Assembly (NCBI GenBank): GCA_964469295.1
Contig: CAYXYJ010000003.1
Coordinates: forward strand, 12,595 to 76,594
Length of the DNA stretch: 64,000 bases
Source: an uncultured Candidatus Saccharibacteria bacterium
GTDB taxonomy: Bacteria > Patescibacteriota > Minisyncoccia > Phycocordibacterales > UBA918
Direction: 5' to 3'
Shown: piece by piece, positions 15,502-45,479 of the stretch
How the letters are laid out: each line of letters starts with the position of its first letter
How positions within the stretch are numbered: position 1 is the first letter of the stretch
Translations under genes and position numbers: made by a program
Notes under the pieces: model-generated
Databases searched by the model: none
What the model was told of the DNA's origin: nothing
What the model saw: the letters and a program-made list of their open reading frames with translations, nothing else

Positions 15502-15533
15502 CATTTGACTAAGCGTGTTATACTGAAAGGTAT

Positions 15534-15914: not shown

Positions 15915-15926
15915 TATTTTTCTACT

Positions 15927-20936: not shown

Positions 20937-21758
20937 ATGTCTCAGCCAGCAAAAGACGAGGTTTCAGAAAAATTTCAACACAAAAAATCGCTTGGGCAAA
21001 ACTTTCTTACCAGTGATATCGTCCCGAACTGGATGTGCGACGCCGGCACCGTGACTGCCGGAGATACAGTGGTAGAAATTGGGCCAGGCAGTGGCGCGTT
21101 AACAGCGGTACTCCTCGCCCGCGGTGCCATTGTCCACGCGATTGAAACTGACCATCGAGCAGTAGCGCTGCTATCCGACACTTTCCGCACCGCTCTTGTC
21201 ACGGGACAACTTATACTGCACCACGCTGACATGCGTGCATTTGACCTAACAACAATCTCGCTCACAGTACCGTATAAAGTCATCGCTAATATTCCGTATT
21301 TTTTATCTGGGTTTTTGTTACGAACAATGCTCGAAACGACCCCGCCACCAACAACATTGGTATTTTTGATGCAAAAAGAAATGGTAGAGCGTATCACCAA
21401 AGATCCAAAATCATCATTATTGTCATTATCGGTAAAAGTCTACGGCACGCCAAAATACCTAAAAACGGTATCGCGAGGGCATTTTCTCCCCCAACCAAAC
21501 GTCGATTCCGCTATTTTAGCCGTTACGAACATTAGTCACCAACACTTGCCCACTTCAACTGCTCGCGAACACTTTTTTACCTTATTACACCTCGGTCTTG
21601 GTTCAAGACGAAAACAACTTATTGGTTGTCTCGCTCATATATATGAGCGAGATCGTCTCGCAGAAATTCTCGCTACACTAGATAAGCCGATTACCGTCCG
21701 GGGCGAAGATTTATCCGTTACTGACTGGATTACTCTTGCCACGATGCTCTCCAAATAG
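20937..21758 (+). CDS. rsmA: 16S rRNA (adenine1518/1519-N6)-dimethyltransferase
   Basis: KSLGQNFL hallmark, SAM motif VVEIGPGSGALT, and NIPY. Confidence 0.9.
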   Translation: MSQPAKDEVSEKFQHKKSLGQNFLTSDIVPNWMCDAGTVTAGDTVVEIGPGSGALTAVLLARGAIVHAIETDHRAVALLSDTFRTALVTGQLILHHADMRAFDLTTISLTVPYKVIANIPYFLSGFLLRTMLETTPPPTTLVFLMQKEMVERITKDPKSSLLSLSVKVYGTPKYLKTVSRGHFLPQPNVDSAILAVTNISHQHLPTSTAREHFFTLLHLGLGSRRKQLIGCLAHIYERDRLAEILATLDKPITVRGEDLSVTDWITLATMLSK

Positions 21759-21870
21759 TGACGGTCATTCTCTTACGAGAAATATGTCAATCCGAATAAA
21801 AATACCTCGGGTAGTACACAATTCGTTTATAAACGAGTAATTTATGGTTATGCCCTTGCTATACTAAAGA

Positions 21871-22761
21871 GTGATGCAAGTCAGTCGAAAAGTCGCCGGT
21901 GCGTCCATCGTGGGTATGGGGTTGGTTTGTGTTGCATTTGGTATGAATATGCTTTCACACGAACAATTACAAGAACAATCAACCACCAACCCGGCGACGG
22001 TCATCAATACCCCAGCCCGGACATACATTGCGGTCACTGACACAAATGGTAACGGTATCGAAGATTGGCGCGAAGAATTCCTAACCGAAGAACCCATCGT
22101 CATGGCGAGCACCACCACGTTTGTCATGCCAGAGACTATTACCGACCAAGTCGGTATTGATATGTTTGAATCAATGGTGCGCGGCAAAGCGCTTGGTCCA
22201 TTTGCTGATACCGAAACAGAATTAGTCGATACTGCTACTGCCCGCGCGATTAAAGCTGGTACCGATACCATGTATACCGAACGGGATATTGTCACCACTA
22301 ATACCAACAACATTACAGTGCGGGCGTATGGTAACGCCTTAGGACAAAGTGTGGTCGATAACAGCAGTAAATACGGTGACGAACTCGCCATCGTCAACCG
22401 CGCCCTCCAAACCAATAACGGCACTGAGTTAGACAAACTGAACGATATTGCCCTTTCCTATAAAAAACTTCGTGATGAAGCCCTTAATACTCCCGTTCCA
22501 GACCAATTTATTCGGGTCCATCTCGATCTCATCAACACTTATAATGCGATGTATAACACCATTTCCGGCCTCCAATTAGCTGTGAGTGATCCAATGGTGG
22601 CGCTCGTCCGGATCAAACGGTACCAAGATGATGCTCTCGGGTTACAGTATGCCATCAGCAATCTGATCACCGCACTTGATCCCTATAATTCCGTCTTTTA
22701 TGCTGATGACACGGTGATGATACTCGTGGCGCTTGCTGTTATGCACGAAAATAATCTATGA
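21871..22761 (+). CDS. Hypothetical membrane-anchored or secreted protein, first gene of the T4SS-like cluster
   Basis: An N-terminal hydrophobic segment VAGASIVGMGLVCVAFGMNML precedes a hydrophilic domain. Translationally coupled to the next gene. Confidence 0.4.
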   Translation: MMQVSRKVAGASIVGMGLVCVAFGMNMLSHEQLQEQSTTNPATVINTPARTYIAVTDTNGNGIEDWREEFLTEEPIVMASTTTFVMPETITDQVGIDMFESMVRGKALGPFADTETELVDTATARAIKAGTDTMYTERDIVTTNTNNITVRAYGNALGQSVVDNSSKYGDELAIVNRALQTNNGTELDKLNDIALSYKKLRDEALNTPVPDQFIRVHLDLINTYNAMYNTISGLQLAVSDPMVALVRIKRYQDDALGLQYAISNLITALDPYNSVFYADDTVMILVALAVMHENNL

Positions 22762-24092
22762 AATCAATCACCTCAGCGTTCACCATATTCTTAATTGTTT
22801 GCGTTATTGGTACGTCAGTGCACGTGCAAAAGTCGAACGCCTTCTTTTTTGGATTATTGGGTGGGGGCATTGCTAACAATGCCTACCTTGCACAAATTGC
22901 GGCGAACACCCAAATCAGTTCCACCATGGAAAGTGCCCAAAACTCCCGAGAATTGGCCGACACTATCGCCTGGCAAGTGGCCAAACAAATGGTGAGTAAC
23001 ATGACCCGCAGTTTGATTAACTGGATTAATTCAGGGTTTCAAGGGCGACCAGCCTTTATCCAAGATTTAAACCAGTTTCTTATTGACGCACTGGATAACG
23101 TCGCCGGTGAATACATTGCCGAACTGGCGGGCAGCGATTTTATTTGTTCACCGTTTCGACTGGATGTGCAAGCCGCGCTCACTATTAATTATCAACAAGC
23201 CCGCAGTGGCATGCCCTCCGGTGGCGACGAGAGTATGTGTACGGCTACTGGTATCGTGAGTAACATCGAAAATTTCCTCAATGGCACCATTAATAGTTGG
23301 GATGAGTGGCTCACCGTGACCGCCAATCCGCAGAATACTCCATACGGCGCCTACCTTGAAGCCGAAGCCAAATTAAACGCTCGACTGGTTAATGCCGCTG
23401 GTCAAGAAATAGAAATGGCCGACTGGGGTGACGGTTTTATGTCTCAATCTGTTTGTGAACCAGTCGAAGGGGGCGGGGAAACGTGTACGGTATCCACTCC
23501 CGGAACACTCATTAACGAAGCCCTCAGCTTCCAAATCACGACCGGCCCACGATCACTCATCGAAGCGGACGAAGTCAATGAATTAATTGGTGCCTTAGTC
23601 AACCAACTCGCGCTTCAGATGGTTAATGGTATAAATGGATTATTGGGACTCAGTCAACGAAATCCTTCCACTGGCCGATCGTATCTTGACAACGCCGTCG
23701 CGGACGTACCCGATATTGACCTCACCCCTTATCGCACCGAACTTGATGCTGCCCACGCTCGAGAAGTCGCGTTTCTTACCCTGATTGACGCGACCTATGC
23801 CTCAGCGACCGCCAATCATGCCAGTACGAGTAGTAGCACCGTCGCGGGCATAGTGCGAGAACTTGAAACCTTACGTCCCCAAGTTGTCGCCAACATTGCG
23901 TCAACCTCCGCCTTACGTAACCGTTTTATTAATGCGACAAGTAGCACCGGTACGAGCACTGATAGTATCTACCAACGTATCGTTATTGATTTTCTTGCCT
24001 TAAAGAGTAACGGAACCTTACATAGTCAAGCCTATGTCGATAGTCGACGCGAATATTGGCGATTAGTTCTTGACGGTACCGAGGTTGAATAA
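22758..24092 (+). CDS. Hypothetical secreted protein (signal peptide), T4SS-cluster associated
   Basis: MKSITSAFTIFLIVCVIGTSVHV is a signal peptide. Start overlaps the previous stop (ATGA). Confidence 0.4.
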   Translation: MKSITSAFTIFLIVCVIGTSVHVQKSNAFFFGLLGGGIANNAYLAQIAANTQISSTMESAQNSRELADTIAWQVAKQMVSNMTRSLINWINSGFQGRPAFIQDLNQFLIDALDNVAGEYIAELAGSDFICSPFRLDVQAALTINYQQARSGMPSGGDESMCTATGIVSNIENFLNGTINSWDEWLTVTANPQNTPYGAYLEAEAKLNARLVNAAGQEIEMADWGDGFMSQSVCEPVEGGGETCTVSTPGTLINEALSFQITTGPRSLIEADEVNELIGALVNQLALQMVNGINGLLGLSQRNPSTGRSYLDNAVADVPDIDLTPYRTELDAAHAREVAFLTLIDATYASATANHASTSSSTVAGIVRELETLRPQVVANIASTSALRNRFINATSSTGTSTDSIYQRIVIDFLALKSNGTLHSQAYVDSRREYWRLVLDGTEVE

Positions 24093-24219
24093 TTTGCCTA
24101 TCAATTACGTGTTGCTGGGGAGTGGTTTTTGTTACTTATAGACAGTTTTTAGATAAAAAGGAGCCGCAAAACCATCATCACAATGGTATGATAGAACAGA
24201 CACTTGGAGGTCAACTGTT

Positions 24220-26400
24220 ATGTTGTCGCGTCTTTTTGCAAAACCGCTTACCCGCACCATCTGTATTGGGTTTTTTGTCGGAATTTGTTTATTTTTTGTT
24301 GGGACAATCGTCGTTTCGGCCCAAGTTACTCCTAATAGTGACTATCAGGTCGTACAGTGTACAGGTGAGGAATGTTCCAGTGGGCTGCTGAAATGGTTAT
24401 TGGATTTCGTGATTGTGGTATTTGGTAGTTTAGTGGGACTATTCGGTTCTGCTTTTGACTGGTTTATTGGTAATTTTATCATTGATTTTGGCCTTCATTA
24501 TCAATCAAGCAACTTCGGGGCAGTGATTGACGGAGTCTGGTCGACTGTTCGGGATATTTTCAATTTGACTTTTATTTTTGGTCTTATATATATCGGTTTT
24601 CAAATTATTTTGGGTACCAATGATTCTCAGGCCAAAAAAACCATTCCCATGTTGATTTTGGCGGCTCTCCTCGTTAATTTCAGTCTCTTTATTACCAAAT
24701 TTATCGTAGATTTTTCCAATATCGCTGCAGTGGAGGTCTATCAATTATTTGAAAGTTCAGCGAATGCCTATGGTAGTAGCGTTGGTGGCTATGGCGGAGC
24801 CAGTATTTCGCAAGCCTTTATGAATGCCCTCGGTATCTCTTCGCTTTTTGGTCAATTACCAGCCGGAGCAGAGTTGCTCTACATTTTTGGCATGCTGATT
24901 GTGTTTTTAGTCCTTATTTATGTGTTTCTGGCCGGCGCCATTTTAATTGCTATCCGGTTTGCAATGTTATCTTTGTACCTTGTATTTTCACCCGTAATGT
25001 TTATTGGGTGGGTATTTCCAGGATTTAATAAATATCAACAACAATTTTGGAGTGGATTCTTAGGTCAAGCATTTTTTGCTCCGGCGTTTTTATTCATGTT
25101 GTATTTGTCTTACCAAATTGTCTCGACATTTAGCGGAGATACTCACACTAATTTTAATACATTAACTGTTAGCAATGGGAGCACCGTTACGAGTGGATTT
25201 TTGGCGGTAATGCCACTATTTTTAATGACGGTGGTTTTTTTACTCGCTTCTATGGCTGTCGCCAAAGGCATGAGTCGCCAAGGCTCAGAATACGCGGTCA
25301 AAGGCGTTGATTGGATGTACAAAAAGGGAATGGGTGCGGTGAAGGGTGCCGGGCAAGCAGTTTCTTATGTCCCACGTGCTGGTGCACGATATGGAGTTAA
25401 TAAAACTGGCGAATGGAGTGAAAAGAAACTTAATAGTCTGCAAGCACGGGATGGAAAATTAGGTAAACTATTAAGTACAAACGCCGTGGATAAAGCGTTG
25501 AGAGGTGGAACAACAAAAATGCAGAAAGCCGAAATGGGTACGGGTACTACAAACAAAGCCGAGAAGGAATATAGAGCAATTACCACTAACCGTAATGCGG
25601 GTCTACAAGAAAAGAAGTCTCGTGAAGCGGCGATTGCTACCGCCGCGGCGAATTTTGCTGAACTTGATGCGTTACGCAATAAACCAAACCGTACTAATAA
25701 TGAAACAAATCGATTAATTTCTCTTGAAACTGAGGCTGCTCAAGCTCAAAATTATATTAATCAACTTGACAAGGGTGAAATCGAAAAACTCGACAAAACT
25801 ACGCGTAAGGCATACGCAACTAAATTTAATGCCGATCAAATGAAACATATTCTCGATAGCGAGAAAATTACAAATGACGAAAAGGAATCAATTATTGAAG
25901 CCCGAAGAGAGAAAATTAGAAACAACACGACATCACCTGGCAACATCATGAAGTTGACTCGCGACGAACTTGAGACATTGGGATTTGATTGGATGACAAA
26001 TAATGTCCAGAATTTAACACACTCTCAATTTGATGATTATATTAAAAACAATAAAAAACTCACTCCTGAATTAGTTAATTCATTCAAGTCAGTTAGAGAA
26101 TCGAAGATTTTGCAATCCATTGAAGACGGCTCTGCGGGTGGTTTACTGACCGAATTGAAAAAGAAACCAAAAGAATTTGCTCAGTTACCCAAACAAGTTT
26201 TCACAGATAGACGCTATGTAAATATTATCCCTTACCTGACCGTTGGAGTACTTGAACAAATTGCGCACGAGAGAATTCTTGATCAAAATCAACGGTTTGC
26301 TATAAAAGGATTTTTGACTCATGGCGGACGCGGTAGTACCCCAACTGAAGTGATTGCATATTTAAGTTCAGATAAAGGAAAAGAATATTATGGACCATAA
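24220..26400 (+). CDS. Polytopic membrane protein, VirB6/TrbL-like candidate, with long C-terminal coiled-coil extension
   Basis: A signal/TM segment and at least six TM helices fill the first ~350 aa. A ~370-aa charged coiled-coil tail follows. GGAGG RBS 8 nt upstream. The architecture is that of VirB6-like channel subunits, but sequence similarity cannot be verified here. Confidence 0.4.
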   Translation: MLSRLFAKPLTRTICIGFFVGICLFFVGTIVVSAQVTPNSDYQVVQCTGEECSSGLLKWLLDFVIVVFGSLVGLFGSAFDWFIGNFIIDFGLHYQSSNFGAVIDGVWSTVRDIFNLTFIFGLIYIGFQIILGTNDSQAKKTIPMLILAALLVNFSLFITKFIVDFSNIAAVEVYQLFESSANAYGSSVGGYGGASISQAFMNALGISSLFGQLPAGAELLYIFGMLIVFLVLIYVFLAGAILIAIRFAMLSLYLVFSPVMFIGWVFPGFNKYQQQFWSGFLGQAFFAPAFLFMLYLSYQIVSTFSGDTHTNFNTLTVSNGSTVTSGFLAVMPLFLMTVVFLLASMAVAKGMSRQGSEYAVKGVDWMYKKGMGAVKGAGQAVSYVPRAGARYGVNKTGEWSEKKLNSLQARDGKLGKLLSTNAVDKALRGGTTKMQKAEMGTGTTNKAEKEYRAITTNRNAGLQEKKSREAAIATAAANFAELDALRNKPNRTNNETNRLISLETEAAQAQNYINQLDKGEIEKLDKTTRKAYATKFNADQMKHILDSEKITNDEKESIIEARREKIRNNTTSPGNIMKLTRDELETLGFDWMTNNVQNLTHSQFDDYIKNNKKLTPELVNSFKSVRESKILQSIEDGSAGGLLTELKKKPKEFAQLPKQVFTDRRYVNIIPYLTVGVLEQIAHERILDQNQRFAIKGFLTHGGRGSTPTEVIAYLSSDKGKEYYGP

Positions 26401-27061
26401 CATTTCCAACATAAGAATGGATATCATTAAACAGGCCTCTGATAAGGTGCTGTATCTTTATAATCATGTCAGTTTGAGTAATTTTGCTTCAACACTAGAC
26501 AGTGTGTTCCACACAAATGTAGCACAGGATTATACGTTTGATTTGTTGGTTGGCGACATTATTCTCGGATTTTACCGGATTGAAGACACGGTACCACTGT
26601 TACAACAAGAGCTCGGGCTTGATCCAAAAACCGCGGCGTTATTAGGCGCAGAAGTGTTGGAATTTCTGGCACCATTATCTGATCCCAATTGGCAACCACC
26701 AGCTGAAGAAGAAATGGAGGACACGCCCGGCGAAGGGGAGGTCCCTGTAGTCGCTGCTACTGTGCCAGCTTCAACCACCACTGCTACCACCAAAACAACA
26801 GAGACCACTCCAGTCATACCAACCACCCCAACCCCACTCCATACCATGGCGGCGGATATGGCTACATTGCGACAATCGCCAACTCCGGCGCCAAGCTACC
26901 TGGGAGCACCGACCCCGGTCGAAACGGTTTATCGTTCTGAACAACCGCCGTTGCGGCAAACGTTATCTGATTTGCCAACCTATCAATCACCATCGACACC
27001 ACCGGTTCAACCGCCGACTCCAGCCGCATCTGATCGACCACGATGGAGTACTGACTATTAA
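26390..27061 (+). CDS. Hypothetical Pro/Thr-rich protein (cluster-associated)
   Basis: 223 aa with no TM. Overlaps the upstream gene by 11 nt. Confidence 0.35.
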   Translation: MDHNISNIRMDIIKQASDKVLYLYNHVSLSNFASTLDSVFHTNVAQDYTFDLLVGDIILGFYRIEDTVPLLQQELGLDPKTAALLGAEVLEFLAPLSDPNWQPPAEEEMEDTPGEGEVPVVAATVPASTTTATTKTTETTPVIPTTPTPLHTMAADMATLRQSPTPAPSYLGAPTPVETVYRSEQPPLRQTLSDLPTYQSPSTPPVQPPTPAASDRPRWSTDY

Positions 27062-27127
27062 GTGGAGTAAACAGTGGGCGGGCATAGCCCGCCCGCTGTT
27101 TACTATTCCCATGTATAATAAGCGGAC

Positions 27128-27538
27128 ATGCAGTTTGAAACACCACAATTTATTGAAATTGATGATAAAATCTTTGGCCCCTTAACATGGAAACAATTTC
27201 TTTATGTATTTGGTGGTGGCATTATGACCTTGGTGCTTTTTTTCATGGTACCATTTATTGTCTTTTTACTCATTGGGGTACCGATCGCCGCTCTTTCTGC
27301 CGCTTTGGCGTTTTACCCCATTAACAATCGACCTTTCGAGAATTTTCTCGAAGCGATGTTTAATTATTTTAGTCGGCAGCGGCTGTATCACTGGCAACAA
27401 AAGAAGAATGTCGTGTATCGCGATACTGACACCACCAGTGTTCACAATCCTATTCTCACCGATACCCTCATGAAAAAACGCGACATCAGTGCGATTGCCC
27501 GCCGACTGGAAATTGATGCCATTCAAAAGAAACAATAA
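27128..27538 (+). CDS. Small two-TM membrane protein, VirB3/PrgI-like candidate
   Basis: 136 aa. IEIDDKIFGPLTWKQFLYVFGGGIMTLVLFFMVPFIVFLLIGVPIAALSAALAF shows two hydrophobic helices immediately upstream of VirB4, the conserved VirB3-VirB4 order. Confidence 0.4.
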   Translation: MQFETPQFIEIDDKIFGPLTWKQFLYVFGGGIMTLVLFFMVPFIVFLLIGVPIAALSAALAFYPINNRPFENFLEAMFNYFSRQRLYHWQQKKNVVYRDTDTTSVHNPILTDTLMKKRDISAIARRLEIDAIQKKQ

Positions 27539-27543
27539 TTACT

Positions 27544-28167
27544 ATGGCCAATTCTTCTACCGCTACCCAAGATTTTGTTCCAATCCGTGATATCCAAAAC
27601 GGGATGGTGATTCTTAAAAACGGCCAGTTATGCAAAGTCCTCCTCGCTTCATCCATCAATTTTGCGTTGAAATCAAGTGATGAACAACGAGCTATTTTGT
27701 TTCAGTTTCAAAACTTTCTTAACACGTTAGATTTTTCGATACAAATTTACGTCCAGTCACGACGGCTAAATATCGAACCATACATAGCAAACCTTGAAGC
27801 GCTCGAACCTATCCAATACAACGATTTGATGCGAGTGCAGTTGCGTGAATACATTGAATTTATCCGCACGTTTACCACCGAAGTGGACGTCATGAGTAAA
27901 AATTTCTTTCTCGTTATTCCGTACACGGCGCCCCGTATTGATATTAAAAAAAGCGTTGCTAGTGTACTTGGTCGTGGGAAAATTCTGGAAACAAACACTC
28001 TTGAAGAGCAACGGTTGCAACTTGAACAACGACAATCAGTCGTCGAACAAGGATTAAATCGCATTGGTGTTCGTACCATCGAATTAAATACCGACGAATT
28101 GGTCGAGTTGTTCTATCACATATACAACCCCACTGATGTCACCGGCGCCGCGCCTAAGGTACAATAA
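27544..28167 (+). CDS. VirB4/TrbE-family ATPase, N-terminal domain piece (split gene or frameshift)
   Basis: DFVPIRDIQNGMVILKNGQLCKVLLASSINFALKSSDEQRAILFQFQNFLNTLDFSIQIYVQSRRLN matches the conserved N-terminal region of Gram-positive-type VirB4 proteins. It stops 5 nt before the ATPase ORF, which is in another frame. Confidence 0.55.
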   Translation: MANSSTATQDFVPIRDIQNGMVILKNGQLCKVLLASSINFALKSSDEQRAILFQFQNFLNTLDFSIQIYVQSRRLNIEPYIANLEALEPIQYNDLMRVQLREYIEFIRTFTTEVDVMSKNFFLVIPYTAPRIDIKKSVASVLGRGKILETNTLEEQRLQLEQRQSVVEQGLNRIGVRTIELNTDELVELFYHIYNPTDVTGAAPKVQ

Positions 28168-28172
28168 AATGT

Positions 28173-29969
28173 ATGGGACTATTCGATAAACTTGCGGGCA
28201 ATAATAACACCAGCCCCATTGAAAACGTCAGCGAGGGGTTATTAACCCTCACCGATGTGATTGCGCCGTCAGCAGTATCCATCGGACCACGTAGTGTCAA
28301 TATCAGTGGTACCATTGCTCGGGTATTTCATGCGGTGGCGTACCCGCGGTTTCTTACTGATGGTTGGCTTGAACCAATTCTAAATCTCGAAAAGGAACTG
28401 GATGTATCGATTGTCATTCATCCCATGGATACCGCCGAAACGTTAAAACGCCTCCAGAAAAAAGTGGCTGAAGTCCAGAGCCAAATCAACGTGCGCGCCA
28501 GTAATGGTCAAGTGCGTGACCCCCAACTCGAAGCCGCCTATCGCAACATCGAAGATCTCCGCGACAAATTACAACAATCGGAAGAAAAAATGTTTAAGGT
28601 GGGATTGTACATTGCGATTTATGGCGATTCTGATACCAAAGTAAACAAAGTGGAAAATGATATTAAAGGGATTCTCGATTCACGGTTAATCTACATCAAG
28701 CCGAGCCTCTTTAAACAAGAGCAGGGGATTCATAGCGTGTTGCCAACTGCCACCGATGAGCTCCTCGAACACAGCCAATTTAATTCTTCACCCTTATCTA
28801 GTTTCTTTCCGTTTACCTCATTTGATCTCACCTCTGATAACGGCATTTTATACGGTATCAATCGTCACAATTCCTCACTCGTGCTCTTTGATCGTTTTTC
28901 TCTGACGAACTACAACTCCGTGACGTTTGCTACCTCTGGTGCCGGGAAGTCATACAGTATCAAACTGGAAATTCTCCGGTCACTCATGTTCGGAACGGAA
29001 GTCATCGTCATCGATCCCGAACGAGAATATGAATATCTCGCCGAATCAACTGGCGGCCGCTTCTTTAATATTTCACTGTCTTCCGAGCACCACATCAATC
29101 CGTTTGATATTCCACCACCCAGTGATGATGAGGAACCTGCCGACGTATTACGATCGCAAATTGTTCATTTAATTGGCTTATTCCGTTTGATGCTTGGTGG
29201 TCTATCGCCTGAGGAAGAAACCATTATTGATTTGGCCGTCCGGGAAACGTACGCACTTAAAGATATCACTGAGCAGAGTAATTTTGCTGAACTCGAACCA
29301 CCGTTGTTATCGGATTTTGAAATGGTACTCGCTGGGATGAACGGGAGCGGGTCACTTATCAGCCGGCTACAAAAATACACCTCGGGTACCTGGTCTGGGT
29401 TTATGAACCAACCAACCAACGTTGATATCAACCAAAAATTTGTCGTCTTTAGTCTGCGTGACATGGAAGACGAATTAAAGACCATCGCCATGTTTATTAT
29501 CACCAACTACATTTGGGCCGCCATTCGGCGGCGGTTGGTAAAGCGTCTTCTCGTCATTGATGAAGCGTGGTGGATGATGAAATCCGAAGATACCGCTTCG
29601 TTTTTATTCTCGCTTGCAAAACGCGGCCGTAAATATTATTTGGGTATCGCAACTATTACCCAAGACGTGGACGATTTTTTGCGTTCTCCCTATGGTGTGC
29701 CGATGATCACGAACTCTTCGCTCCAATTTCTGATGAAGCAGTCACCGACGGCGATTGATAACATTCAACGGACTTTCAATTTAACGGATGAAGAAAAGTA
29801 CCTGTTACTCGAATCCGATGTGGGGGAAGGGCTTTTCTTTGTAGGATTGAAACACGTCGCCATCAAAGTCATCGCCTCCTACACCGAAGACCAAATCATT
29901 ACGTCCGATCCGTCGCAATTGCTCAAAATTCAAACCGCTCGACGCGAATTACGCAAACGTGGTGTGTAG
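28173..29969 (+). CDS. VirB4/TrbE-family conjugal transfer ATPase (C-terminal two-thirds)
   Basis: IAPSAVSIGPRSVNISGTIARVFHAVAYPRFLTDGWLEPIL (VirB4 pattern); Walker A TSGAGKSYS; Walker B LLVIDEAWWMM. The upstream in-frame region stays open back to 28158, consistent with a -1 frame change joining it to the N-terminal piece. Confidence 0.8.
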   Translation: MGLFDKLAGNNNTSPIENVSEGLLTLTDVIAPSAVSIGPRSVNISGTIARVFHAVAYPRFLTDGWLEPILNLEKELDVSIVIHPMDTAETLKRLQKKVAEVQSQINVRASNGQVRDPQLEAAYRNIEDLRDKLQQSEEKMFKVGLYIAIYGDSDTKVNKVENDIKGILDSRLIYIKPSLFKQEQGIHSVLPTATDELLEHSQFNSSPLSSFFPFTSFDLTSDNGILYGINRHNSSLVLFDRFSLTNYNSVTFATSGAGKSYSIKLEILRSLMFGTEVIVIDPEREYEYLAESTGGRFFNISLSSEHHINPFDIPPPSDDEEPADVLRSQIVHLIGLFRLMLGGLSPEEETIIDLAVRETYALKDITEQSNFAELEPPLLSDFEMVLAGMNGSGSLISRLQKYTSGTWSGFMNQPTNVDINQKFVVFSLRDMEDELKTIAMFIITNYIWAAIRRRLVKRLLVIDEAWWMMKSEDTASFLFSLAKRGRKYYLGIATITQDVDDFLRSPYGVPMITNSSLQFLMKQSPTAIDNIQRTFNLTDEEKYLLLESDVGEGLFFVGLKHVAIKVIASYTEDQIITSDPSQLLKIQTARRELRKRGV

Positions 29970-29983
29970 TATACTAGTGACAT

Positions 29984-30634
29984 ATGGCCGAACCGCGCTA
30001 CCAAACTATCGATAGTGATTTTCGTGATGAGCAAGAAAAGCGAACTGGATTTGGCATCAGAAACGCTCAAATGCAAACCGGCAACGTACGCCAACAACCA
30101 AGACAATTAATGGCAGAAGAGGGGAAATCCCCAACACCAACCCGACCAGGGAAAATGAGTGTCCCAAAATCAAGCGCTTTCGGTAGTCCAAAAAAACTGG
30201 CGGTTAATCGAGCCAAAGCAACAGCCACCACCCTCCAAATCGTATTATGGGCCGTTGTGCCATCGTTTTTTGTGTTTATTGTCTGCATTGTTTGTTTAAT
30301 AACCTTTGGTGCCTACAATATGACCCCAACCTGGATTCAAGAAGGGGTAAACAAAGTAGCATATATACTCGGTTGGCAACAAGACGTCCTCCAAACGTTG
30401 TTTTGGATTACGTATATCATACAAATGGTAACGGTCCTTACTATCATGGCTGGTGTTGTTGCTCATTATTCCATTCGGGGTGTCCGGTGCTTGGGGGGAA
30501 GAGAGGCTGGTGTGTTTAAAAAAATGATTTTTGGCATGATGGCTGTTTTTTGTTTTATTCCAGGCACGCCGATACTTGTCATACCAATTTTTGGTACCTG
30601 TTGGATGTTATTGGTTTGCGCCTATCCCAACTAA
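29984..30634 (+). CDS. Hypothetical membrane protein (4 predicted TM helices)
   Basis: An N-terminal ~90-aa soluble basic region is followed by four hydrophobic helices. Confidence 0.4.
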   Translation: MAEPRYQTIDSDFRDEQEKRTGFGIRNAQMQTGNVRQQPRQLMAEEGKSPTPTRPGKMSVPKSSAFGSPKKLAVNRAKATATTLQIVLWAVVPSFFVFIVCIVCLITFGAYNMTPTWIQEGVNKVAYILGWQQDVLQTLFWITYIIQMVTVLTIMAGVVAHYSIRGVRCLGGREAGVFKKMIFGMMAVFCFIPGTPILVIPIFGTCWMLLVCAYPN

Positions 30635-30675
30635 CCACTCGTAGAGTGACTAGTCGATTGCTATACTTATGATGT

Positions 30676-31638
30676 ATGCGATTGTTATGTAGCCTGTTCA
30701 TTTTGATGTGGGTGTTGCCCCTGACTACCAACGCTCAATTTACGCAATCATTGTTTAATGAGCAATTTGCTATTTCGGTATCGCCACAATACCCGAATCC
30801 TGGCGACACCGTCACCGCAACAGTGAATGATTATTCACTTGGTGCTACTGGTGGTTCAATTGCCTGGTTTATTGACGGGAAAGCGGCTACATCAAGCGTG
30901 AACGCTCGATCAATCACCTTTATTGCGGGGGCACCACTTACTCCCACAACCGTGCGTGCTGATTTACGGCTCGGTACCGGGGAAGTATTAACTGCCTCAC
31001 AAACTATCGTCCCACGCTATCTCGATATCATTGTCGAACCACAGACATATGTACCACAATGGTATAGTGGTCGCGCTTTACCCACCAACGGATCTTTGGT
31101 GCGACTTACGGCACTGCTCCACGGCCAAAATGGCCCAGTTGACCATACGGCCTATACGTATACTTGGAAAGTAAATAATAATGTCATTGGCGGTGGTGGG
31201 GTTCGCGGTGGCTACCAAACCACTTACACCGTCCCGATTGGACAATCACACTTGGTATCTCTAGAAATTACCGATACTACCGGTCGGATGGTGAGTAAAA
31301 AAAATATCACAGTCGGTACCGGCGAAGTTGACGCAGTTTTATATGAAGCCAACCAACTCTATGGTCTCGGTCACCGGGCCATCGGGAATAATCGTGTCAT
31401 GACTGGAAATTCATTAACCATTGAAGCCGTTCCTTATAATCTTGATCTGCGAGCGTTATACGGCAACATTTTTACTGAATGGAAAATTAACAATCAAAAA
31501 GTCACTGAAGTGGGTAAAAGTCCTTTTACCATTACTCTCGGTCGACAGGGTTTTGGTGCGGTAACCTTAGGTTTCAAGGTACGAAATCCTGACGCCCTCC
31601 TCCAGGGTGACGAAGTCAGTACGGTATTACAATTTTAA
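30676..31638 (+). CDS. Hypothetical secreted beta-rich protein
   Basis: MRLLCSLFILMWVLPLTTNAQ is a signal peptide; 320 aa. Confidence 0.4.
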   Translation: MRLLCSLFILMWVLPLTTNAQFTQSLFNEQFAISVSPQYPNPGDTVTATVNDYSLGATGGSIAWFIDGKAATSSVNARSITFIAGAPLTPTTVRADLRLGTGEVLTASQTIVPRYLDIIVEPQTYVPQWYSGRALPTNGSLVRLTALLHGQNGPVDHTAYTYTWKVNNNVIGGGGVRGGYQTTYTVPIGQSHLVSLEITDTTGRMVSKKNITVGTGEVDAVLYEANQLYGLGHRAIGNNRVMTGNSLTIEAVPYNLDLRALYGNIFTEWKINNQKVTEVGKSPFTITLGRQGFGAVTLGFKVRNPDALLQGDEVSTVLQF

Positions 31639-31640
31639 TT

Positions 31641-32819
31641 ATGAAAAAGATTTGGCTTTTTATCCTTGGCGGTATCCTCATCATTGTATTGGGAGGATTT
31701 TGGATATACAGTTTTCTCTATGGCAGTACTAGTAACAGTAGTGCTGTCTTTACCGATTTTAATCTCTTTGGTGGCAATGACACCCCAATAGTCACCGAGC
31801 CACTGCCACCACCAGTCACGGAAACACCAACCGTTGATGTCGCCAGTGCACCATTGCGACAATTAACGACGAGACCAGTCATTGGTATGCGGGCGATTAC
31901 TGTTGGTACCACTACCGTTATGCGGTATGTCGAAGCGGGTACCGGACATGTCTTTGCGATTGATTTAACCACAGGCGCCGAAACGCGAATTTCACAAATT
32001 TCGGTACCGGTGGCTAGTGAAGCGGTGTTCAGTCCGAGTGGCCAATACGTCGCCATTCGTTCTGGGTACGATACCACCAACGAAGTGAGTGTTATCAATC
32101 TTGATGCCATGACGCCAACATCTACCGTTTTGCCGTACCAAATTGAAGATGTTACCTTCGGGTACAATAACCAACTGTGGTTTACCGAATTTGTGAGTGG
32201 TAAAACGGTTGGAAAACAGTACGACCCTACCACTCGGCTCACAACAAATTTATTCACTATTCCATTTACGGCCGTCACCATTGAATGGAGTACCAGCAGC
32301 AGTACACCGCACTACGCGTATACCAAACCAGCGCCAGATTTTATTGGGTATGGCTACGAAATTAAAAATGGTGGCATCGTGCGCCTACCCTATAGTGGCT
32401 ACAATGTACGACTTTATAGTGTCAACGCTGGACTGGTTATTACCAAATCAGAAGGGGTAAATGGCCAAATAGCAAGCTATTTCTATCATGGTGATGATAA
32501 CGGTAGCCGATCAGTCTATCCAATTTTGGGCCACGAAAAATGTGTGTCCCTGACTCGAACCGGAGTATTTTGCGCCACCAATGACAATACGTATCAAAAC
32601 AGCACTCAACTCACCCGCTGGAGCATGGGGGTATTGTCAAGTTCTGACACCTTGTATCAAATTGGTTTCAGCGGATCGGCACAACGGATATTGGAATTAA
32701 AAACGGAAACTGGTCGAGATATTGATGTCATGAATATGGACAAAACAATCGACGGGAAAATGGTATACTTTACCAACGCCAACGATAAAACCCTGTGGGT
32801 CTATGACATCGATAATTAA
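31641..32819 (+). CDS. Hypothetical N-terminally anchored extracytoplasmic protein
   Basis: KKIWLFILGGILIIVLGGFWIY is an anchor followed by a beta-rich domain. Directly follows the previous gene (TAATTATG). Confidence 0.4.
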   Translation: MKKIWLFILGGILIIVLGGFWIYSFLYGSTSNSSAVFTDFNLFGGNDTPIVTEPLPPPVTETPTVDVASAPLRQLTTRPVIGMRAITVGTTTVMRYVEAGTGHVFAIDLTTGAETRISQISVPVASEAVFSPSGQYVAIRSGYDTTNEVSVINLDAMTPTSTVLPYQIEDVTFGYNNQLWFTEFVSGKTVGKQYDPTTRLTTNLFTIPFTAVTIEWSTSSSTPHYAYTKPAPDFIGYGYEIKNGGIVRLPYSGYNVRLYSVNAGLVITKSEGVNGQIASYFYHGDDNGSRSVYPILGHEKCVSLTRTGVFCATNDNTYQNSTQLTRWSMGVLSSSDTLYQIGFSGSAQRILELKTETGRDIDVMNMDKTIDGKMVYFTNANDKTLWVYDIDN

Positions 32820-33945
32820 CCGCGGTACATTTTTTGTAGCTGGCCTCATTACCATTATCTGGTGTGGTTTTTTTACTGTAGCTTTGGCTGCTGACTATGT
32901 ACCACTCGTGAATATCCCGGCGGTCGCCAACCCCAACAACATCAACGACTATATTAACGCGTTATATAATTTATCGATTAGTATCGCGGCCTTGATTGCG
33001 GTGGTCAAGATTGTTATCGCTGGTGCCAAGTGGATGTTTGGAAGTACTTCGATTAGTAGTATTCAAAGTGCGAAACAAGACATTCAAAATGCGTTAATTG
33101 GGTTGTTGATTATTATTGGTGCCGTGTTGATTCTAAATACTATCAATAGCGATTTGACCAACCTCACCATTTTTGATGAAAGTGATAGGGTAGTGGTAAA
33201 TGATACGCCGTCCAATGGTTTGTTTGTCACTATGGATCAAATAAAGGCAGCTTGTGAAGAAAATCCTGAGGCTATGGATTGTAGCCTGGAAATACGTTGC
33301 AATGACAATGACATTGGTAACTTCATTTTTGGTAGCGCGTTTTGGGGAAATATGGAATATATAACTAATCCCAACGATATTAGCTTAAGTTGTGGAGTGA
33401 TTTGCAAAAACATCGGTGGATATATGGATTACGGCTTGGCAATAGACGGAACAGACGCAAAGTGCCATATCAGTAAAACTTTAATGAACAATTTAATTAG
33501 CGACTATTTTGAAAAATTAGTGACAGATCAATGCTCATCTGGACGGGTTGATGGTGAAATCTGTCAGATTGAACTTTGTAGTGAACACGACTTAAACAAT
33601 AATACCTACAATGGAAATAGCCAACAAGATTTTAGTAGATGCGAAGCAGAATGTCTAGAAGAAAGACAGGGCTCTTATTTTGACACTCGTAGTGGTGCTT
33701 GTATATTTACGGGTGATTATTACCTGACCGAGGAAGAATGTTCGGAACGCGTTCATATGACCTGGTCTGACGAAGAAAATGTTTGTTATGACCAAACCAC
33801 GACTCAAAGCATTGCGTGTGATTTCTTTGAAAGTACTGGTACCTATGATTGTAGTATAGCGAGAGGCGAGTGTATTGATAATACTGATGTACCAGGAACA
33901 CCAGTTACCGCTGCCGACGGGCGATCTATTTACTGTGTACAGTAG
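32803..33945 (+). CDS. VirB2/TrbC-like pilin-type module fused to a ~260-aa Cys-rich extracellular domain
   Basis: Signal peptide ending ALA-ADY, then two hydrophobic helices (LSISIAALIAVVKIVIAGAKWMF and ALIGLLIIIGAVLILNTI). This is the classic T4SS pilin topology in the first ~125 aa. A domain with more than 20 Cys follows (CEENPEAMDCSLEIRCNDND...CIDNTD...). Overlaps the upstream gene by 17 nt. Confidence 0.4.
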   Translation: MTSIINRGTFFVAGLITIIWCGFFTVALAADYVPLVNIPAVANPNNINDYINALYNLSISIAALIAVVKIVIAGAKWMFGSTSISSIQSAKQDIQNALIGLLIIIGAVLILNTINSDLTNLTIFDESDRVVVNDTPSNGLFVTMDQIKAACEENPEAMDCSLEIRCNDNDIGNFIFGSAFWGNMEYITNPNDISLSCGVICKNIGGYMDYGLAIDGTDAKCHISKTLMNNLISDYFEKLVTDQCSSGRVDGEICQIELCSEHDLNNNTYNGNSQQDFSRCEAECLEERQGSYFDTRSGACIFTGDYYLTEEECSERVHMTWSDEENVCYDQTTTQSIACDFFESTGTYDCSIARGECIDNTDVPGTPVTAADGRSIYCVQ

Positions 33946-33962: not shown

Positions 33963-34694
33963 TTATCGATGCTTGCGAACAATGAGTTCCTGCACCACCA
34001 TGGTGAGGTTACTAACAATAAAATATAACGCGATGGCGGCTGAGAAGGTGTAGGAAATGAACGTCGTAAAGATTGGCATGACGTATTTCATCTGCAACTG
34101 CATATTGCGCATAAAATCATCTTTAAAATCTGCCGTTTCACCAGACTTTTTTGGTGGTAATGTAGGCAATGATAGCGACGTACTGGCAAACTGCGTAATC
34201 CCTGCAAGAAGGGCCAAGGCCAGACTCGCTTCGGCGATATTAAAGTGACCCAAAAATAACATCGATATTTCATCCGGCATCGGAACAAACGAATATAAAA
34301 TTTCCGGATTAATATTTGGTAGTTTGATACCACCACTACCATACATCGCCACAATACCTAAAGCAATAATCACCGGAAGCTGGATAAACAGCACAAGAAT
34401 ACTGGCAAACGGACTGACTCCGGCCTCTTTATATAATTCCATCATCGCTTTCGCTTGCGCTTCACGGTTGTCTTTGTGGGAGAGTTTAATTTCTTTAAGT
34501 TTTGGTTCAATCTCACGCATTGCTTTTTGTGTTTTCACCATTTTAATTGACAGTGGAAAGAGGAGTACCTTGACCCCAATAACGGTCGCAATAATCGCTA
34601 ACCCCACATCGCCGTGCGGAAAAACATCCAAAAAGAAAACGAGGGTGTTGTAAATTGGATCAAAGAAAAACGAGTGCCAAATAAATGAAAACAT
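33963..34694 (-). CDS. yidC: YidC/Oxa1-family membrane protein insertase (short form)
   Basis: 243 aa; GLAIIATVIGVKVLLFPLSIKMVKTQKAMREIEPKLKEIK is typical of the YidC core; downstream of rnpA. Confidence 0.8.
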   Translation of the reverse strand: MFSFIWHSFFFDPIYNTLVFFLDVFPHGDVGLAIIATVIGVKVLLFPLSIKMVKTQKAMREIEPKLKEIKLSHKDNREAQAKAMMELYKEAGVSPFASILVLFIQLPVIIALGIVAMYGSGGIKLPNINPEILYSFVPMPDEISMLFLGHFNIAEASLALALLAGITQFASTSLSLPTLPPKKSGETADFKDDFMRNMQLQMKYVMPIFTTFISYTFSAAIALYFIVSNLTMVVQELIVRKHR

Positions 34695-34706
34695 AGTGTG
34701 GCTATT

Positions 34707-35042
34707 TTAGCGCGATTTACTGATTCGCGCGAGAAGCCCGACTAATTCGGTCTGTAATATCAGTCGATTGGCTTTACTGGCACCGGGTTTATATAACACT
34801 ATTACTACTCCAGTTGGTATGCTAGCAACATTGTTAGCAAGTGTGCCATACGCTCGGCGGCGGAGCTTATTTCGCACTACGGCTCGTTTGGATACCTTTT
34901 TACTGACAACAACACTGAATTTTGCCAATTCATGCGGGACAAAAACGACCGATTGCCATTGACCATGAAAACGGAGGGCGTCGCGTTTGGTAAAAAAATT
35001 GCTAAACTCCAAACGAGAGAGACGGGCAGAACGAGCAAACAT
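34707..35042 (-). CDS. rnpA: Ribonuclease P protein component
   Basis: 111 aa; KKVSKRAVVRNKLRRRAYG is the RNR motif of RnpA; between rpmH and yidC. Confidence 0.8.
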   Translation of the reverse strand: MFARSARLSRLEFSNFFTKRDALRFHGQWQSVVFVPHELAKFSVVVSKKVSKRAVVRNKLRRRAYGTLANNVASIPTGVVIVLYKPGASKANRLILQTELVGLLARISKSR

Positions 35043-35086
35043 ACCAAATTATACCAAAACGACTACAGCAATACGTAAAAAAGCTC

Positions 35087-35236
35087 TTATCGAGCTTTTT
35101 TAACCGTCAACTTGGCCCGGCCTTTGCGACGACGAGCTTGGACTACTTTTCGTCCAGAAGTAGTAGCCTGGCGAACGAGAAACCCGTGAGTGGTCGCCCG
35201 CTTTTGCTTACTTGGTTGATACGTTCGTTTACTCAT
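35087..35236 (-). CDS. rpmH: 50S ribosomal protein L34
   Basis: Absent from the ORF track (<60 aa). Minus-strand translation from ATG at 35234-35236 gives [49 protein letters not shown], the canonical L34. Confidence 0.9.
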
Positions 35237-35568
35237 AGCACTATTTCTAAATTATCGCCCAACTATACATGAATATAGCAAAATAGCAACCGCTCTCGTA
35301 AACGACGGTATTTTCATTACATATTCCTACAACAATAAACAACTCCTAACAAAAGCTATGTAAAACGAGCACTTTATTTTTATTAACACCAATCCATCAG
35401 TACATATTCGTCATCTAGTCGCTTGGCAGGGAATAGAGAATACGGAGTGAGGTGTCGGTGTCATTTTATACACAGCTTATACACAGTTGCAGAGTCTGAA
35501 GAAAAAATGAGGGGTACTTTTCATTCATTTTTTTTGTAACCGTTTACAGCAAATATGGAACGGGTATA
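35237..35568. promoter_or_regulatory. AT-rich rpmH-dnaA intergenic region with DnaA-box-like sites and a dnaA promoter (part of oriC region)
   Basis: Two ttatacaca sites (8/9 match to TTATCCACA) near 35470-35490. TATAAT at 35556-35561 with tttaca upstream. Confidence 0.5.
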
Positions 35569-45432: not shown

Positions 45433-45479
45433 AAACGACAAACGCGGACGGCCCAAAGGGCCGTCCGCGTTTGTCGTTT
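45433..45479. terminator. Terminator aaacgacaaacgcggacggccc-aaa-gggccgtccgcgtttgtcgttt
   Basis: A perfect 22-bp palindrome directly after the pilB stop. Confidence 0.8.

What the first reader, a model, noticed from the sequence alone, without database searches (positions are those of the whole stretch)
21871..33945. Chromosomal type IV secretion-like cluster with no relaxase or coupling protein and mostly secreted unknowns
Eleven co-directional, tightly packed or overlapping genes are present. They include a VirB6-like polytopic protein with a long coiled-coil tail, a VirB3-like two-TM protein, VirB4 (two ORFs) and a pilin-topology protein. Between them lie several signal-peptide or anchored proteins of unknown function. 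No VirD4-like ATPase, relaxase, VirB11 or lytic transglycosylase is recognisable in the window. The cluster is flanked by rsmA and yidC-rnpA-rpmH, the core chromosome next to oriC. This argues for a resident secretion or DNA-uptake, host-interaction machine rather than a mobile conjugative element.
Basis: partly seen in the sequence, partly recalled or inferred. Interest (0 to 1): 0.75.

Follow-up and report, generated by a model that had tools for sequence, protein, structure and literature searches.

The report
Resident Patescibacteria type IV secretion locus
This is the chromosomal, non-conjugative type IV secretion gene cluster that ultrasmall Patescibacteria (here a Paceibacteria genome) carry next to their replication origin; it is real and biologically important, but it was already described in papers from 2023 to 2025.

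Summary
Eleven co-directional, tightly packed genes occupy 21871-33945, between rsmA and yidC-rnpA-rpmH-dnaA-dnaN. Profile searches confirm a VirB4 ATPase (monoderm CD1110/MPF-FATA type), a separate TrsD-like VirB4 N-terminal protein and a PrgI/VirB3 protein. Through their orthologues they also support an extended VirB6 and a VirB2-like pilin. No relaxase, VirD4, VirB11, integrase or dedicated lytic transglycosylase is in the 64-kb window. The same gene order occurs in 80 related Paceibacteria genomes, where VirB4 is 66-89% identical, about as conserved as DnaA. The two-ORF VirB4 is split in 78 of 78 loci, so it is not a frameshift. However, this system is already published: its distinct VirB4 clade, the TrsD, PrgI, VirB6 and VirB2 set, the missing relaxase and the position near dnaA, ksgA, rnpA and rpmH (Quinonero-Coronel 2025; Wang 2023 showed it is essential in Saccharibacteria). 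Small additions here are a conserved Paceibacteria accessory set (anchored helix bundle, secreted Cys-containing helical protein, Ig-like protein, TolB-like propeller) and a single pilin with a hypervariable, cysteine-rich C-terminal extension. What the machine transports remains unknown.

The parts
21871..22761 (+). Gene A (296 aa; the database protein starts at ATG 21874, 295 aa). It has an N-terminal membrane anchor, a DxNxNGxEDW calcium-loop-like motif and an extracytoplasmic all-alpha helical bundle. Conserved accessory protein of unknown role.
22758..24092 (+). Gene B (444 aa). Secreted or anchored, mostly alpha-helical, with four conserved Cys and a conserved W-INSGF-G-P-F motif. Conserved accessory protein of unknown role.
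   Evidence: Orthologues in 54 loci. 184 database homologues, every named one called a hypothetical protein, from Paceibacteria/Patescibacteria. The AF2 model is poor in the conserved domain (pLDDT 64). No Foldseek or PDB match.
24220..26400 (+). Gene C (726 aa). Extended VirB6-like polytopic membrane protein: about 7 hydrophobic segments followed by a 381-aa charged C-terminal tail that is probably cytoplasmic.
   Evidence: 10 of 59 orthologues hit Pfam TrbL/VirB6 (best 2e-8) and one hits TrbL_4. The family profile hits TrwI (VirB6 of R388) only weakly, E 0.27. Hydropathy and tail composition. The window protein itself has no direct hit.
26390..27061 (+). Gene D (223 aa). Soluble protein with no TM segment and a Pro/Thr/Ser/Ala-rich C-terminal half. 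The position is conserved but the sequence evolves fast.
   Evidence: 64 loci have an ORF of at least 140 aa at this position, and most have no predicted TM segment. The orthologue alignment ends in a conserved DPYRE-like motif. Composition.
27076..27097 (.). GC-rich perfect hairpin (GGGCGGGC-ATA-GCCCGCCC) in the 66-nt gap between genes D and E. It could be an internal attenuator or an RNA-stabilising element.
   Evidence: Terminator-like scan. The number of such sites in the region is no greater than in shuffled sequence, so its function is unproven.
27128..27538 (+). Gene E (136 aa). PrgI/VirB3-like protein with a membrane hairpin.
   Evidence: Pfam PF12666 PrgI, 1.1e-9, 39.2 bits against a cutoff of 27. 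Orthologues in 76 loci.
27544..28167 (+). Gene F (207 aa). TrsD-like protein, homologous to the N-terminal domain of VirB4 and encoded as a separate gene.
   Evidence: NCBIfam VirB4_plasma N-terminus 3.8e-10, TrsD/TraD NF041427 4.8e-6, TIGR00929 6.9e-6. It is a separate ORF from VirB4 in 78/78 loci.
28173..29969 (+). Gene G (598 aa). VirB4 ATPase of the monoderm (MPF-FATA, CD1110-like) type, with an intact P-loop (ATSGAGKS) and Walker B motif (LLVIDEAW).
   Evidence: NF045971 3.9e-107, 359 bits against a cutoff of 325. Pfam P-loop_TraG 6.7e-26. Motifs read. 66-89% identical in 80 loci, with more than 560 relatives found.
29984..30634 (+). Gene H (216 aa). Membrane protein with 3-4 TM segments and a disordered N-terminus. 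The position is conserved but the sequence evolves fast.
   Evidence: Hydropathy. 45 of the 47 loci that have an ORF of at least 110 aa at this position show a 2-5 TM protein directly after virB4. No Pfam family is shared among them.
30676..31638 (+). Gene I (320 aa). Secreted protein built of Ig-like (Hoc/PKD-like) domains.
   Evidence: The family profile hits the phage T4 Hoc Ig-like domains at 9.5e-7. Weak PKD hit. Orthologues in 74 loci.
31641..32819 (+). Gene J (392 aa). N-terminally anchored TolB-like beta-propeller with conserved Cys.
   Evidence: The family profile hits TolB structures at 2e-6 to 9e-6. Orthologues in 54 loci. Hydropathy.
32803..33945 (+). Gene K (380 aa). VirB2/T4SS_pilin-like core (signal peptide plus two hydrophobic helices, residues about 1-116) followed by a 264-aa C-terminal extension with 18 Cys that is specific to this genome.
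   Evidence: TrbC 3.8e-4 and T4SS_pilin 1.6e-3, both below their cutoffs. 46 of 48 orthologues hit PF18895, best 2e-11. Weak Mbov_0395 pilin-like hit. The extension has no match in any of the 80 loci, while the core gives 59 hits. It is the only pilin-core ORF in the window.
20937..21758 (+). Left flank: rsmA/ksgA (16S rRNA dimethyladenosine transferase). Core gene.
   Evidence: Pfam RrnaAD 8e-33. Syntenic in 52 loci.
33963..36975 (.). Right flank: yidC (-), rnpA (-), rpmH (35087-35236, -) and dnaA (35569-36975, +). This is the replication-origin neighbourhood.
   Evidence: Pfam 60KD_IMP and Bac_DnaA. L34 sequence read directly. Syntenic in about 60 loci.

Best explanation
This is a vertically inherited Patescibacteria-type type IV secretion system. 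It descends from the monoderm (MPF-FATA) conjugation machinery and is fixed in the core chromosome next to oriC of a Paceibacteria genome. It is not a conjugative element.

Shown here:
- The cytoplasmic-membrane engine is present: a VirB4 ATPase, a separately encoded TrsD-like N-domain, PrgI/VirB3 and an extended VirB6.
- One VirB2-like pilin gene is present.
- There is a conserved set of extracytoplasmic accessory proteins: an anchored helix bundle, a Cys-containing helical protein, an Ig-like protein and a TolB-like propeller.

Inferred:
- VirB4, TrsD and VirB3 dock on VirB6 to form the translocon, extract pilin from the membrane, and polymerise it into a tube or pilus that crosses the wall.
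- The pilin's species-specific, disulfide-rich C-terminal domain and the Ig-like and propeller proteins face outward and make contact with the host cell.
- Without a relaxase or a linked coupling protein, the machine does not export DNA by conjugation. Its most likely job is contact-dependent exchange of macromolecules with the host cell on which these epibionts depend. I favour acquisition of host material such as nucleic acids (about 45%) over delivery of effector proteins (about 30%).

The confidence value refers to the identity and the resident, non-conjugative nature of the system, not to its cargo.
For: Components: VirB4 at 359 bits (cutoff 325), and TrsD-like and PrgI hits. VirB6 is supported through 10/59 orthologues and pilin through 46/48 orthologues.

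Residency: identical gene order between rsmA and yidC-rnpA-dnaA-dnaN in 80 species-level genomes. Median VirB4 identity is 79% in the 27 closest loci and 69% in the remaining 53, comparable to DnaA at 83% and 57%. The split VirB4 is conserved in 78/78 loci. No relaxase, T4CP, VirB11 or integrase was found among the 40 ORFs scanned, which include every non-shadow ORF of 200 aa or more. GC content is no different from the flanks.

Surface exposure: the extracytoplasmic parts evolve much faster than the cytoplasmic ones. Medians in the 27 closest loci: A 33%, C 30%, I 35%, J 31%, against F 63% and G 79%. The pilin extension is unmatched even in genomes with 85-89% identical VirB4.

Literature:
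- PMC12102498 describes the same clade, gene set, lack of relaxase and oriC proximity.
- PMC10633639 reports that the T4SS and pilin genes are essential for epibiotic growth of S. epibionticum, with no coupling protein or relaxase recognised.
- bioRxiv 10.64898/2026.06.21.733656 reports host RNA uptake and tubular structures 'that may be T4SS pili' in a cultivated Microgenomatia.
Against: - No experiment exists for any Paceibacteria T4SS, and the cargo and its direction are unknown.
- The window's own VirB6 and pilin proteins do not reach Pfam thresholds; their assignment is transitive, through orthologues.
- No VirB8-like component was found. Gene A is a helix bundle, not NTF2.
- A pilin with a 264-aa extension may be sterically unable to form a classical conjugative pilus.
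- T4CP homologues are common elsewhere in Patescibacteria genomes (PMC12102498). One may exist outside this window and could couple DNA or protein substrates.
- The link between T4SS and RNA uptake in the 2026 preprint is only suggestive.
Confidence: 0.88

Rival explanations
1. It is a DNA-uptake (competence) T4SS analogous to Helicobacter ComB. The pilus and channel would bring environmental or host DNA to the membrane for ComEC-type import, supplying nucleotides.
For: Like ComB, it has no relaxase or coupling protein in the locus. A ComM-like protein lies about 4.4 kb upstream of the cluster start (15927-17447). Import of DNA or other macromolecules is the hypothesis put forward in PMC12102498 and PMC11665869.
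Against: In S. epibionticum, comEC is needed for transformation but is dispensable for growth, whereas the T4SS is essential. The essential role is therefore not ComEC-coupled competence (PMC10633639, as summarised in PMC12857230). ComB belongs to the diderm MPF-T type and has VirB7, 9 and 10. Nothing here ties the locus to DNA.
Confidence: 0.2
2. It is an effector-export system. It would deliver proteins into or onto the host cell without a coupling protein, as the Bordetella Ptl and Brucella VirB systems do.
For: T4SSs without a T4CP that secrete proteins are known (PMC12102498, PMC12857230). Wang et al. suggest protein export as an alternative (PMC10633639). Many Sec-signal proteins are encoded in the cluster.
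Against: No recognisable effector, toxin or immunity genes are in the cluster. The T4CP-less precedents are diderm systems that pick up their substrates in the periplasm. The secreted proteins in the cluster are conserved in position, like structural parts rather than cargo.
Confidence: 0.3
3. It is a decayed or domesticated remnant of an integrated conjugative element that is no longer functional.
For: The VirB4 lineage derives from monoderm conjugation systems (PMC12102498). Relaxase, coupling protein and VirB8 are all missing from the locus.
Against: All eleven ORFs are intact. The Walker motifs are intact. VirB4 is 66-89% identical over 80 species, and the gene order is fixed next to oriC. 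This indicates strong purifying selection. Homologous genes are essential in Saccharibacteria (PMC10633639).
Confidence: 0.03

Closest known systems
Patescibacteria-clade T4SS (Quinonero-Coronel et al. 2025, PMC12102498; S. epibionticum SEML1_0006-0019, Wang et al. 2023, PMC10633639)
   Same: It shares the VirB4 of a monoderm-derived lineage, the adjacent TrsD-like gene, PrgI/VirB3, VirB6 and a VirB2-like pilin. It has no relaxase or T4CP nearby. It has a chromosomal position beside dnaA, dnaN, rnpA, ksgA and rpmH, which the paper reports explicitly for Paceibacteria.
   Different: This Paceibacteria version has one pilin gene (63 of the 68 loci with a pilin-core hit have one), whereas Saccharimonadia and Microgenomatia have arrays of 2-11. 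The pilin carries a hypervariable Cys-rich extension. The accessory genes A, B, D, H, I and J are not named in those papers. No peptidase or lysozyme lies directly downstream of virB4.
[quoted passage not shown]
   Same: The VirB4 scores above the CD1110-family cutoff. TrsD is a separate protein, as in pGO1. A PrgI-type VirB3 is present. The envelope is monoderm and there is no VirB7/9/10. The pilin shows a weak match to the Mycoplasma ICE pilin-like protein.
   Different: The locus has no relaxase, no coupling protein, no VirB1-type hydrolase and no recognisable VirB8-like (PrgL/TraM/TcpC) protein. It has a VirB2-like pilin, which these systems normally lack. It is not on a mobile element.
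T4CP-less T4SSs: Helicobacter ComB (DNA uptake), Bordetella Ptl and Brucella VirB (protein export)
   Same: These operate without a VirD4 coupling protein and without a relaxase. They are chromosomal and serve a non-conjugative function.
   Different: They are diderm MPF-T systems with VirB7/9/10 core complexes and are unrelated at the level of VirB4 subclass. The resemblance is functional only and was not tested here.

Membership tests
Type IV secretion system (general) | VirB4-family ATPase with intact nucleotide-binding motifs | tested here: met
   NF045971 at 359 bits against a cutoff of 325; Pfam TraG P-loop 6.7e-26. P-loop ATSGAGKS and Walker B LLVIDEAW are present.
Type IV secretion system (general) | VirB3-like and VirB6-like membrane components next to virB4 | tested here: met
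   PrgI PF12666 is above its cutoff. VirB6 is supported only through orthologues: 10/59 hit PF04610 (best 2e-8), and the family profile hits TrwI at E 0.27. The window protein alone gives no hit.
Type IV secretion system (general) | VirB8-like (NTF2-fold) bitopic component | tested here: not met
Patescibacteria-clade T4SS (PMC12102498) | VirB4 falls within the monophyletic Patescibacteria clade nested in MPF-FATA | tested here: inconclusive
   No tree was built. More than 560 tblastn-confirmed relatives were found, and the 80 best are 66-89% identical. About 70 of those 80 records are labelled as Patescibacteria/CPR lineages and the rest only as 'bacterium' or 'uncultured bacterium' MAGs. The best family model is the MPF-FATA CD1110 type. 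This is consistent with membership but is not a phylogenetic test.
Patescibacteria-clade T4SS (PMC12102498) | TrsD, PrgI/VirB3, VirB6 and VirB2-like pilin clustered with virB4 | tested here: met
   All lie within 11 consecutive genes.
Patescibacteria-clade T4SS (PMC12102498) | No relaxase or T4CP near virB4; locus near dnaA, dnaN, rnpA, ksgA and rpmH (Paceibacteria pattern) | tested here: met
   No such Pfam or NCBIfam hit in the window. The flanking genes were identified. Synteny holds in 80 loci.
Conjugative element (ICE or plasmid) | MOB relaxase and VirD4/TcpA coupling protein | tested here: not met
   Absent from all 40 ORFs scanned, which include every non-shadow ORF of 200 aa or more in the 64-kb window. 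About ten short ORFs (110-190 aa) were not scanned. The rest of the genome was not available.
Conjugative element (ICE or plasmid) | Integrase or recombinase, insertion at a tRNA or att site, variable presence among relatives | tested here: not met
   No integrase was found. The nearest tRNAs are at 4956-5028 and 51462-51537, far from the cluster. The locus is at the same place in all related genomes. GC content is similar to the flanks.
VirB2/TrbC pilin family | Signal peptide followed by two hydrophobic helices joined by a short loop; match to TrbC or T4SS_pilin profiles | tested here: met
   Three hydrophobic segments at residues 10-28, 57-75 and 96-114. The window protein scores below the cutoffs (21.1 and 18.9 bits), but 46/48 orthologues hit PF18895. 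The 264-aa C-terminal extension is atypical.

The most novel reading that the evidence does not exclude
In Paceibacteria, the single VirB2-like pilin carries a hypervariable, disulfide-rich C-terminal domain. This domain could be the host-specificity determinant of a T4SS-derived tube. Together with the conserved Ig-like, TolB-like and helix-bundle accessory proteins, the tube would form a feeding conduit that draws host macromolecules, such as RNA degraded by the nearby PNPase, into the epibiont. That would be a T4SS working as an importer with a decorated pilus, an architecture not described for any T4SS.
Probability: 0.12. Interest if true: 0.8.

Novelty: already known. Interest (0 to 1): 0.3.

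Why it matters
Patescibacteria make up a large share of bacterial diversity and depend on host cells. In the one species tested, their origin-proximal T4SS is among the few essential, lineage-specific machines, and its cargo is an open question. This window adds no new kind of system. It does give a clean Paceibacteria example with full synteny support. It also gives a list of conserved accessory proteins with their fold classes, and it shows that the pilin's outer domain is the fastest-evolving part. These are useful leads for anyone studying host specificity or building structural models of the machine.

Tried and rejected
1. A direct Pfam or NCBIfam assignment of VirB6 to the window protein failed. 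The question was resolved only through orthologues.
3. The AF2 model of gene B was low-confidence in its conserved domain, and Foldseek against the PDB found nothing with E <= 0.001. A PDB profile search gave only coiled-coil noise.
4. The H-position membrane proteins were tested as possible extra pilins. They share no Pfam family, and a pilin-core HMM finds only gene K in the window.
5. The M23/LysM hydrolase upstream was considered as a VirB1 analogue. It resembles housekeeping DipM/MepM/NlpD endopeptidases and lies on the opposite strand beyond uvrD and rsmA. It is therefore not counted as part of the system.
6. A frameshift or pseudogene explanation for the split VirB4 was rejected, because the split is present in 78/78 loci.
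7. Paralogy between genes I and J and the second surface-protein cluster (54-62.5 kb) was rejected.
8. Attempts to recover the rest of the source contig, so as to look for VirD4 or a relaxase, failed.
This forced two large protein searches.
10. Promoter and terminator scans found no more sites than in shuffled sequence.


Full report
**Observation.** The + strand between 21871 and 33945 carries eleven consecutive ORFs of 296, 444, 726, 223, 136, 207, 598, 216, 320, 392 and 380 aa. The gaps between them run from -17 to +127 nt. RsmA/KsgA ends 112 nt upstream of the first ORF. YidC lies convergent 17 nt downstream of the last, followed by RnpA, RpmH (35087-35236, - strand), DnaA and DnaN.

**Components.** Each assignment was tested with profile searches.
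- The 598-aa protein is a VirB4 ATPase. It scores 359 bits on NCBIfam NF045971 (VirB4-like, CD1110 family; cutoff 325) and hits Pfam TraG P-loop at 7e-26. The P-loop (ATSGAGKS) and Walker B (LLVIDEAW) motifs are intact.
- The 207-aa protein immediately upstream matches the N-terminal part of VirB4 models and the TrsD/TraD family. In 78 of 78 related loci these two are separate ORFs, in varying relative frames. The 'two-ORF VirB4' is therefore the natural TrsD + VirB4 arrangement, not a frameshift.
- The 136-aa protein passes the Pfam PrgI (VirB3-like) threshold.
- The 726-aa protein has no direct family hit. However, 10 of its 59 orthologues hit Pfam TrbL/VirB6 (best 2e-8) and one hits TrbL_4. 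The family profile weakly finds TrwI, the VirB6 of R388. It has about seven hydrophobic segments followed by a 381-aa charged tail that begins with a Lys/Arg-rich stretch. This makes it an 'extended VirB6' in the sense of PMC12857230.
- The 380-aa protein has the topology of a VirB2 pilin: a signal peptide followed by two hydrophobic helices. It hits TrbC and T4SS_pilin below their thresholds, but 46 of 48 orthologues hit PF18895 (best 2e-11).

**What is absent.** Pfam or NCBIfam scans of 40 ORFs found no VirD4/TcpA, relaxase, VirB11 or integrase. The scans covered every ORF of 200 aa or more that is not an antisense or overlapping shadow of a larger gene. About ten ORFs of 110-190 aa were left unscanned. 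The only T2SSE-type ATPase (45479-47209, - strand) has an MshEN domain and is a PilB-type type IV pilus ATPase. An M23+LysM hydrolase at 17510-18613 (- strand) resembles the housekeeping endopeptidases DipM, MepM and NlpD. I do not count it as a VirB1.

**Is it resident or mobile?** A scan of one genome per species found more than 560 relatives of this VirB4. The 80 best are 66-89% identical. Most come from MAGs labelled Paceibacteria, Parcubacteria, Kaiserbacteria, Nomurabacteria, Campbellbacteria and similar; many are labelled only 'uncultured Candidatus Saccharibacteria'. In those loci the order UvrD-RsmA-[A B C D E F G H I J K]-YidC-RnpA-DnaA-DnaN recurs wherever the contig reaches far enough. 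The only rearrangement is an occasional swap of J and K. VirB4 has a median identity of 79% in the 27 closest loci and 69% in the remaining 53. That is as conserved as DnaA, at 83% and 57%. GC content does not differ from the flanks, and no tRNA or integrase borders the cluster. This is the signature of a vertically inherited core locus under purifying selection, not of an ICE.

**The unknown genes.** Genes D and H are too divergent for tblastn. Even so, 64 loci have an ORF of at least 140 aa after virB6, mostly without a TM segment. And 45 of the 47 loci that have an ORF of at least 110 aa directly after virB4 encode a 2-5 TM protein there.
- The gene J family profile matches TolB beta-propellers at about 2e-6.
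- The gene I family profile matches the Ig-like domains of phage T4 Hoc at 1e-6.
- Gene B has 184 homologues, and every named one is called a hypothetical protein. It is predicted to be helical, but the conserved Cys-containing domain modelled poorly and gave no fold match.

The extracytoplasmic proteins evolve much faster than the cytoplasmic ones. Median identity in the 27 closest loci is 30-40% for the former, against 63-79% for TrsD and VirB4.

**The pilin.** Only one pilin-core ORF exists in the window. Of the 68 loci with a pilin-core hit, 63 have one and 5 have two. Downstream of the conserved core, the orthologues carry C-terminal extensions of 9-313 aa (median 161; 37 orthologues measured), nearly always with an even number of cysteines. 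The window's 264-aa extension has 18 Cys. It has no tblastn match (E < 0.01) in any of the 80 loci, including L001, L002 and L003, whose VirB4 is 85-89% identical. The core, by contrast, gives 59 hits. One orthologue even carries a subtilase domain. From general knowledge of VirB2/TraA topology, both termini lie outside the membrane and on the outer face of the filament, so this domain should be surface-exposed. I found no mention of these extensions in the two T4SS papers that match the search terms.

**Comparison with the literature.**
- Quinonero-Coronel et al. 2025 (PMC12102498) analysed 3,035 Patescibacteria genomes. They describe a monophyletic VirB4 clade nested in MPF-FATA, with TrsD, PrgI/VirB3, VirB6 and VirB2-like pilins near virB4. 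Relaxases are almost absent and T4CP is rarely linked. In Paceibacteria and Microgenomatia the locus lies close to dnaA, dnaN, rnpA, ksgA and rpmH. This is exactly the present locus.
- Wang et al. 2023 (PMC10633639) showed by Tn-seq that the homologous cluster (SEML1_0006-0019) and its pilins are essential for epibiotic growth of a Saccharibacterium. They noted the lack of coupling and relaxase proteins.
- A 2025 review (PMC12857230) treats these as a new T4SS group.
- A 2024 perspective (PMC11665869) calls the role 'completely unknown'. It mentions effector delivery as earlier speculation and names the T4SS as a candidate route for obtaining nucleotides.
- A 2026 preprint reports host RNA uptake and tubular structures 'that may be T4SS pili' in a cultivated Microgenomatia.

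**Mechanism.** The parts list and its conservation are shown. The rest is inferred:
- VirB4, TrsD and VirB3 on VirB6 form the membrane translocon and pilin-extraction motor.
- The pilin forms a wall-spanning tube or pilus whose variable outer domain, together with the Ig-like and TolB-like proteins, engages the host surface.
- Without a relaxase or a linked T4CP, the machine does not conjugate.

I favour contact-dependent acquisition of host macromolecules (about 45%) over effector export (about 30%) and ComB-like DNA uptake (about 20%; this overlaps with import). A decayed ICE is very unlikely (3%).

**Verdict.** The system is already known, so novelty is low, and I score interest at 0.3. The residual leads are the Paceibacteria-specific accessory set and the hypervariable pilin extension.

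Noticed in passing
window 32803-33945 (residues 117-380 of gene K); orthologues in L002-L080: The VirB2-like pilin carries a 264-aa C-terminal extension with 18 Cys. The extension has no detectable homologue even in genomes whose VirB4 is 85-89% identical. Orthologue extensions range from 9 to 313 aa, usually have an even number of Cys, and one carries a Peptidase_S8 domain. The T4SS papers I read do not mention these extensions.
   Followed up: partly
window 11008-13128 (+): Polynucleotide phosphorylase is encoded about 9 kb upstream of the T4SS cluster. A 2026 preprint links PNPase and VirB4 to feeding on host RNA in Patescibacteria. No functional link was tested here.
   Followed up: no
window 54051-62519 (+): A second cluster of large proteins that are probably surface-exposed: 324 aa with no hits, 965 aa and 936 aa with weak CARDB hits, and 364 aa with a weak PD40/TolB-like repeat. 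None is paralogous to genes I or J of the T4SS cluster.
   Followed up: partly
window 27076-27097: A perfect 8-bp GC hairpin (GGGCGGGC ATA GCCCGCCC) lies in the 66-nt gap between gene D and the virB3-like gene. It may be an internal attenuator or an RNA-stability element. Its conservation in relatives was not checked.
   Followed up: no
window 17510-18613 (-): An M23 peptidase with two LysM domains lies three genes upstream of the cluster. It sits at the same position in the 12 related loci whose flank reaches that far. It resembles DipM/MepM/NlpD. It could still serve as the wall-opening enzyme for the T4SS, as suggested for Paceibacteria VirB1-like proteins in PMC12102498.
   Followed up: partly
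window 13228-17447 (+): An unknown 757-aa protein has no Cys, a single TM segment at residues 536-554 and no family hit. It is followed by a DksA/TraR-type zinc-finger protein and a ComM-like Mg-chelatase ATPase. This trio was matched in only one related locus (L034), and most related loci do not extend far enough upstream to show it.
   Followed up: no
window 45479-47209 (-): A PilB/GspE-type ATPase (T2SSE plus MshEN domain), the type IV pilus extension motor. It sits among recombination genes (ruvB, ruvC, polA) and should not be mistaken for VirB11.
   Followed up: partly
L010, L011, L012, L018, L020, L022, L024, L026 and others: In many related loci the pilin gene K precedes the TolB-like gene J instead of following it. 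This is the only recurrent rearrangement inside an otherwise fixed gene order.
   Followed up: no
window 21864-22436 (-) and other antisense ORFs (25365-25679, 27747-28079, 29165-29506, 31718-32281): Long ORFs lie antisense to the cluster genes. They were not scanned. I take them to be chance reading frames, because the + strand genes have conserved orthologues throughout.
   Followed up: no
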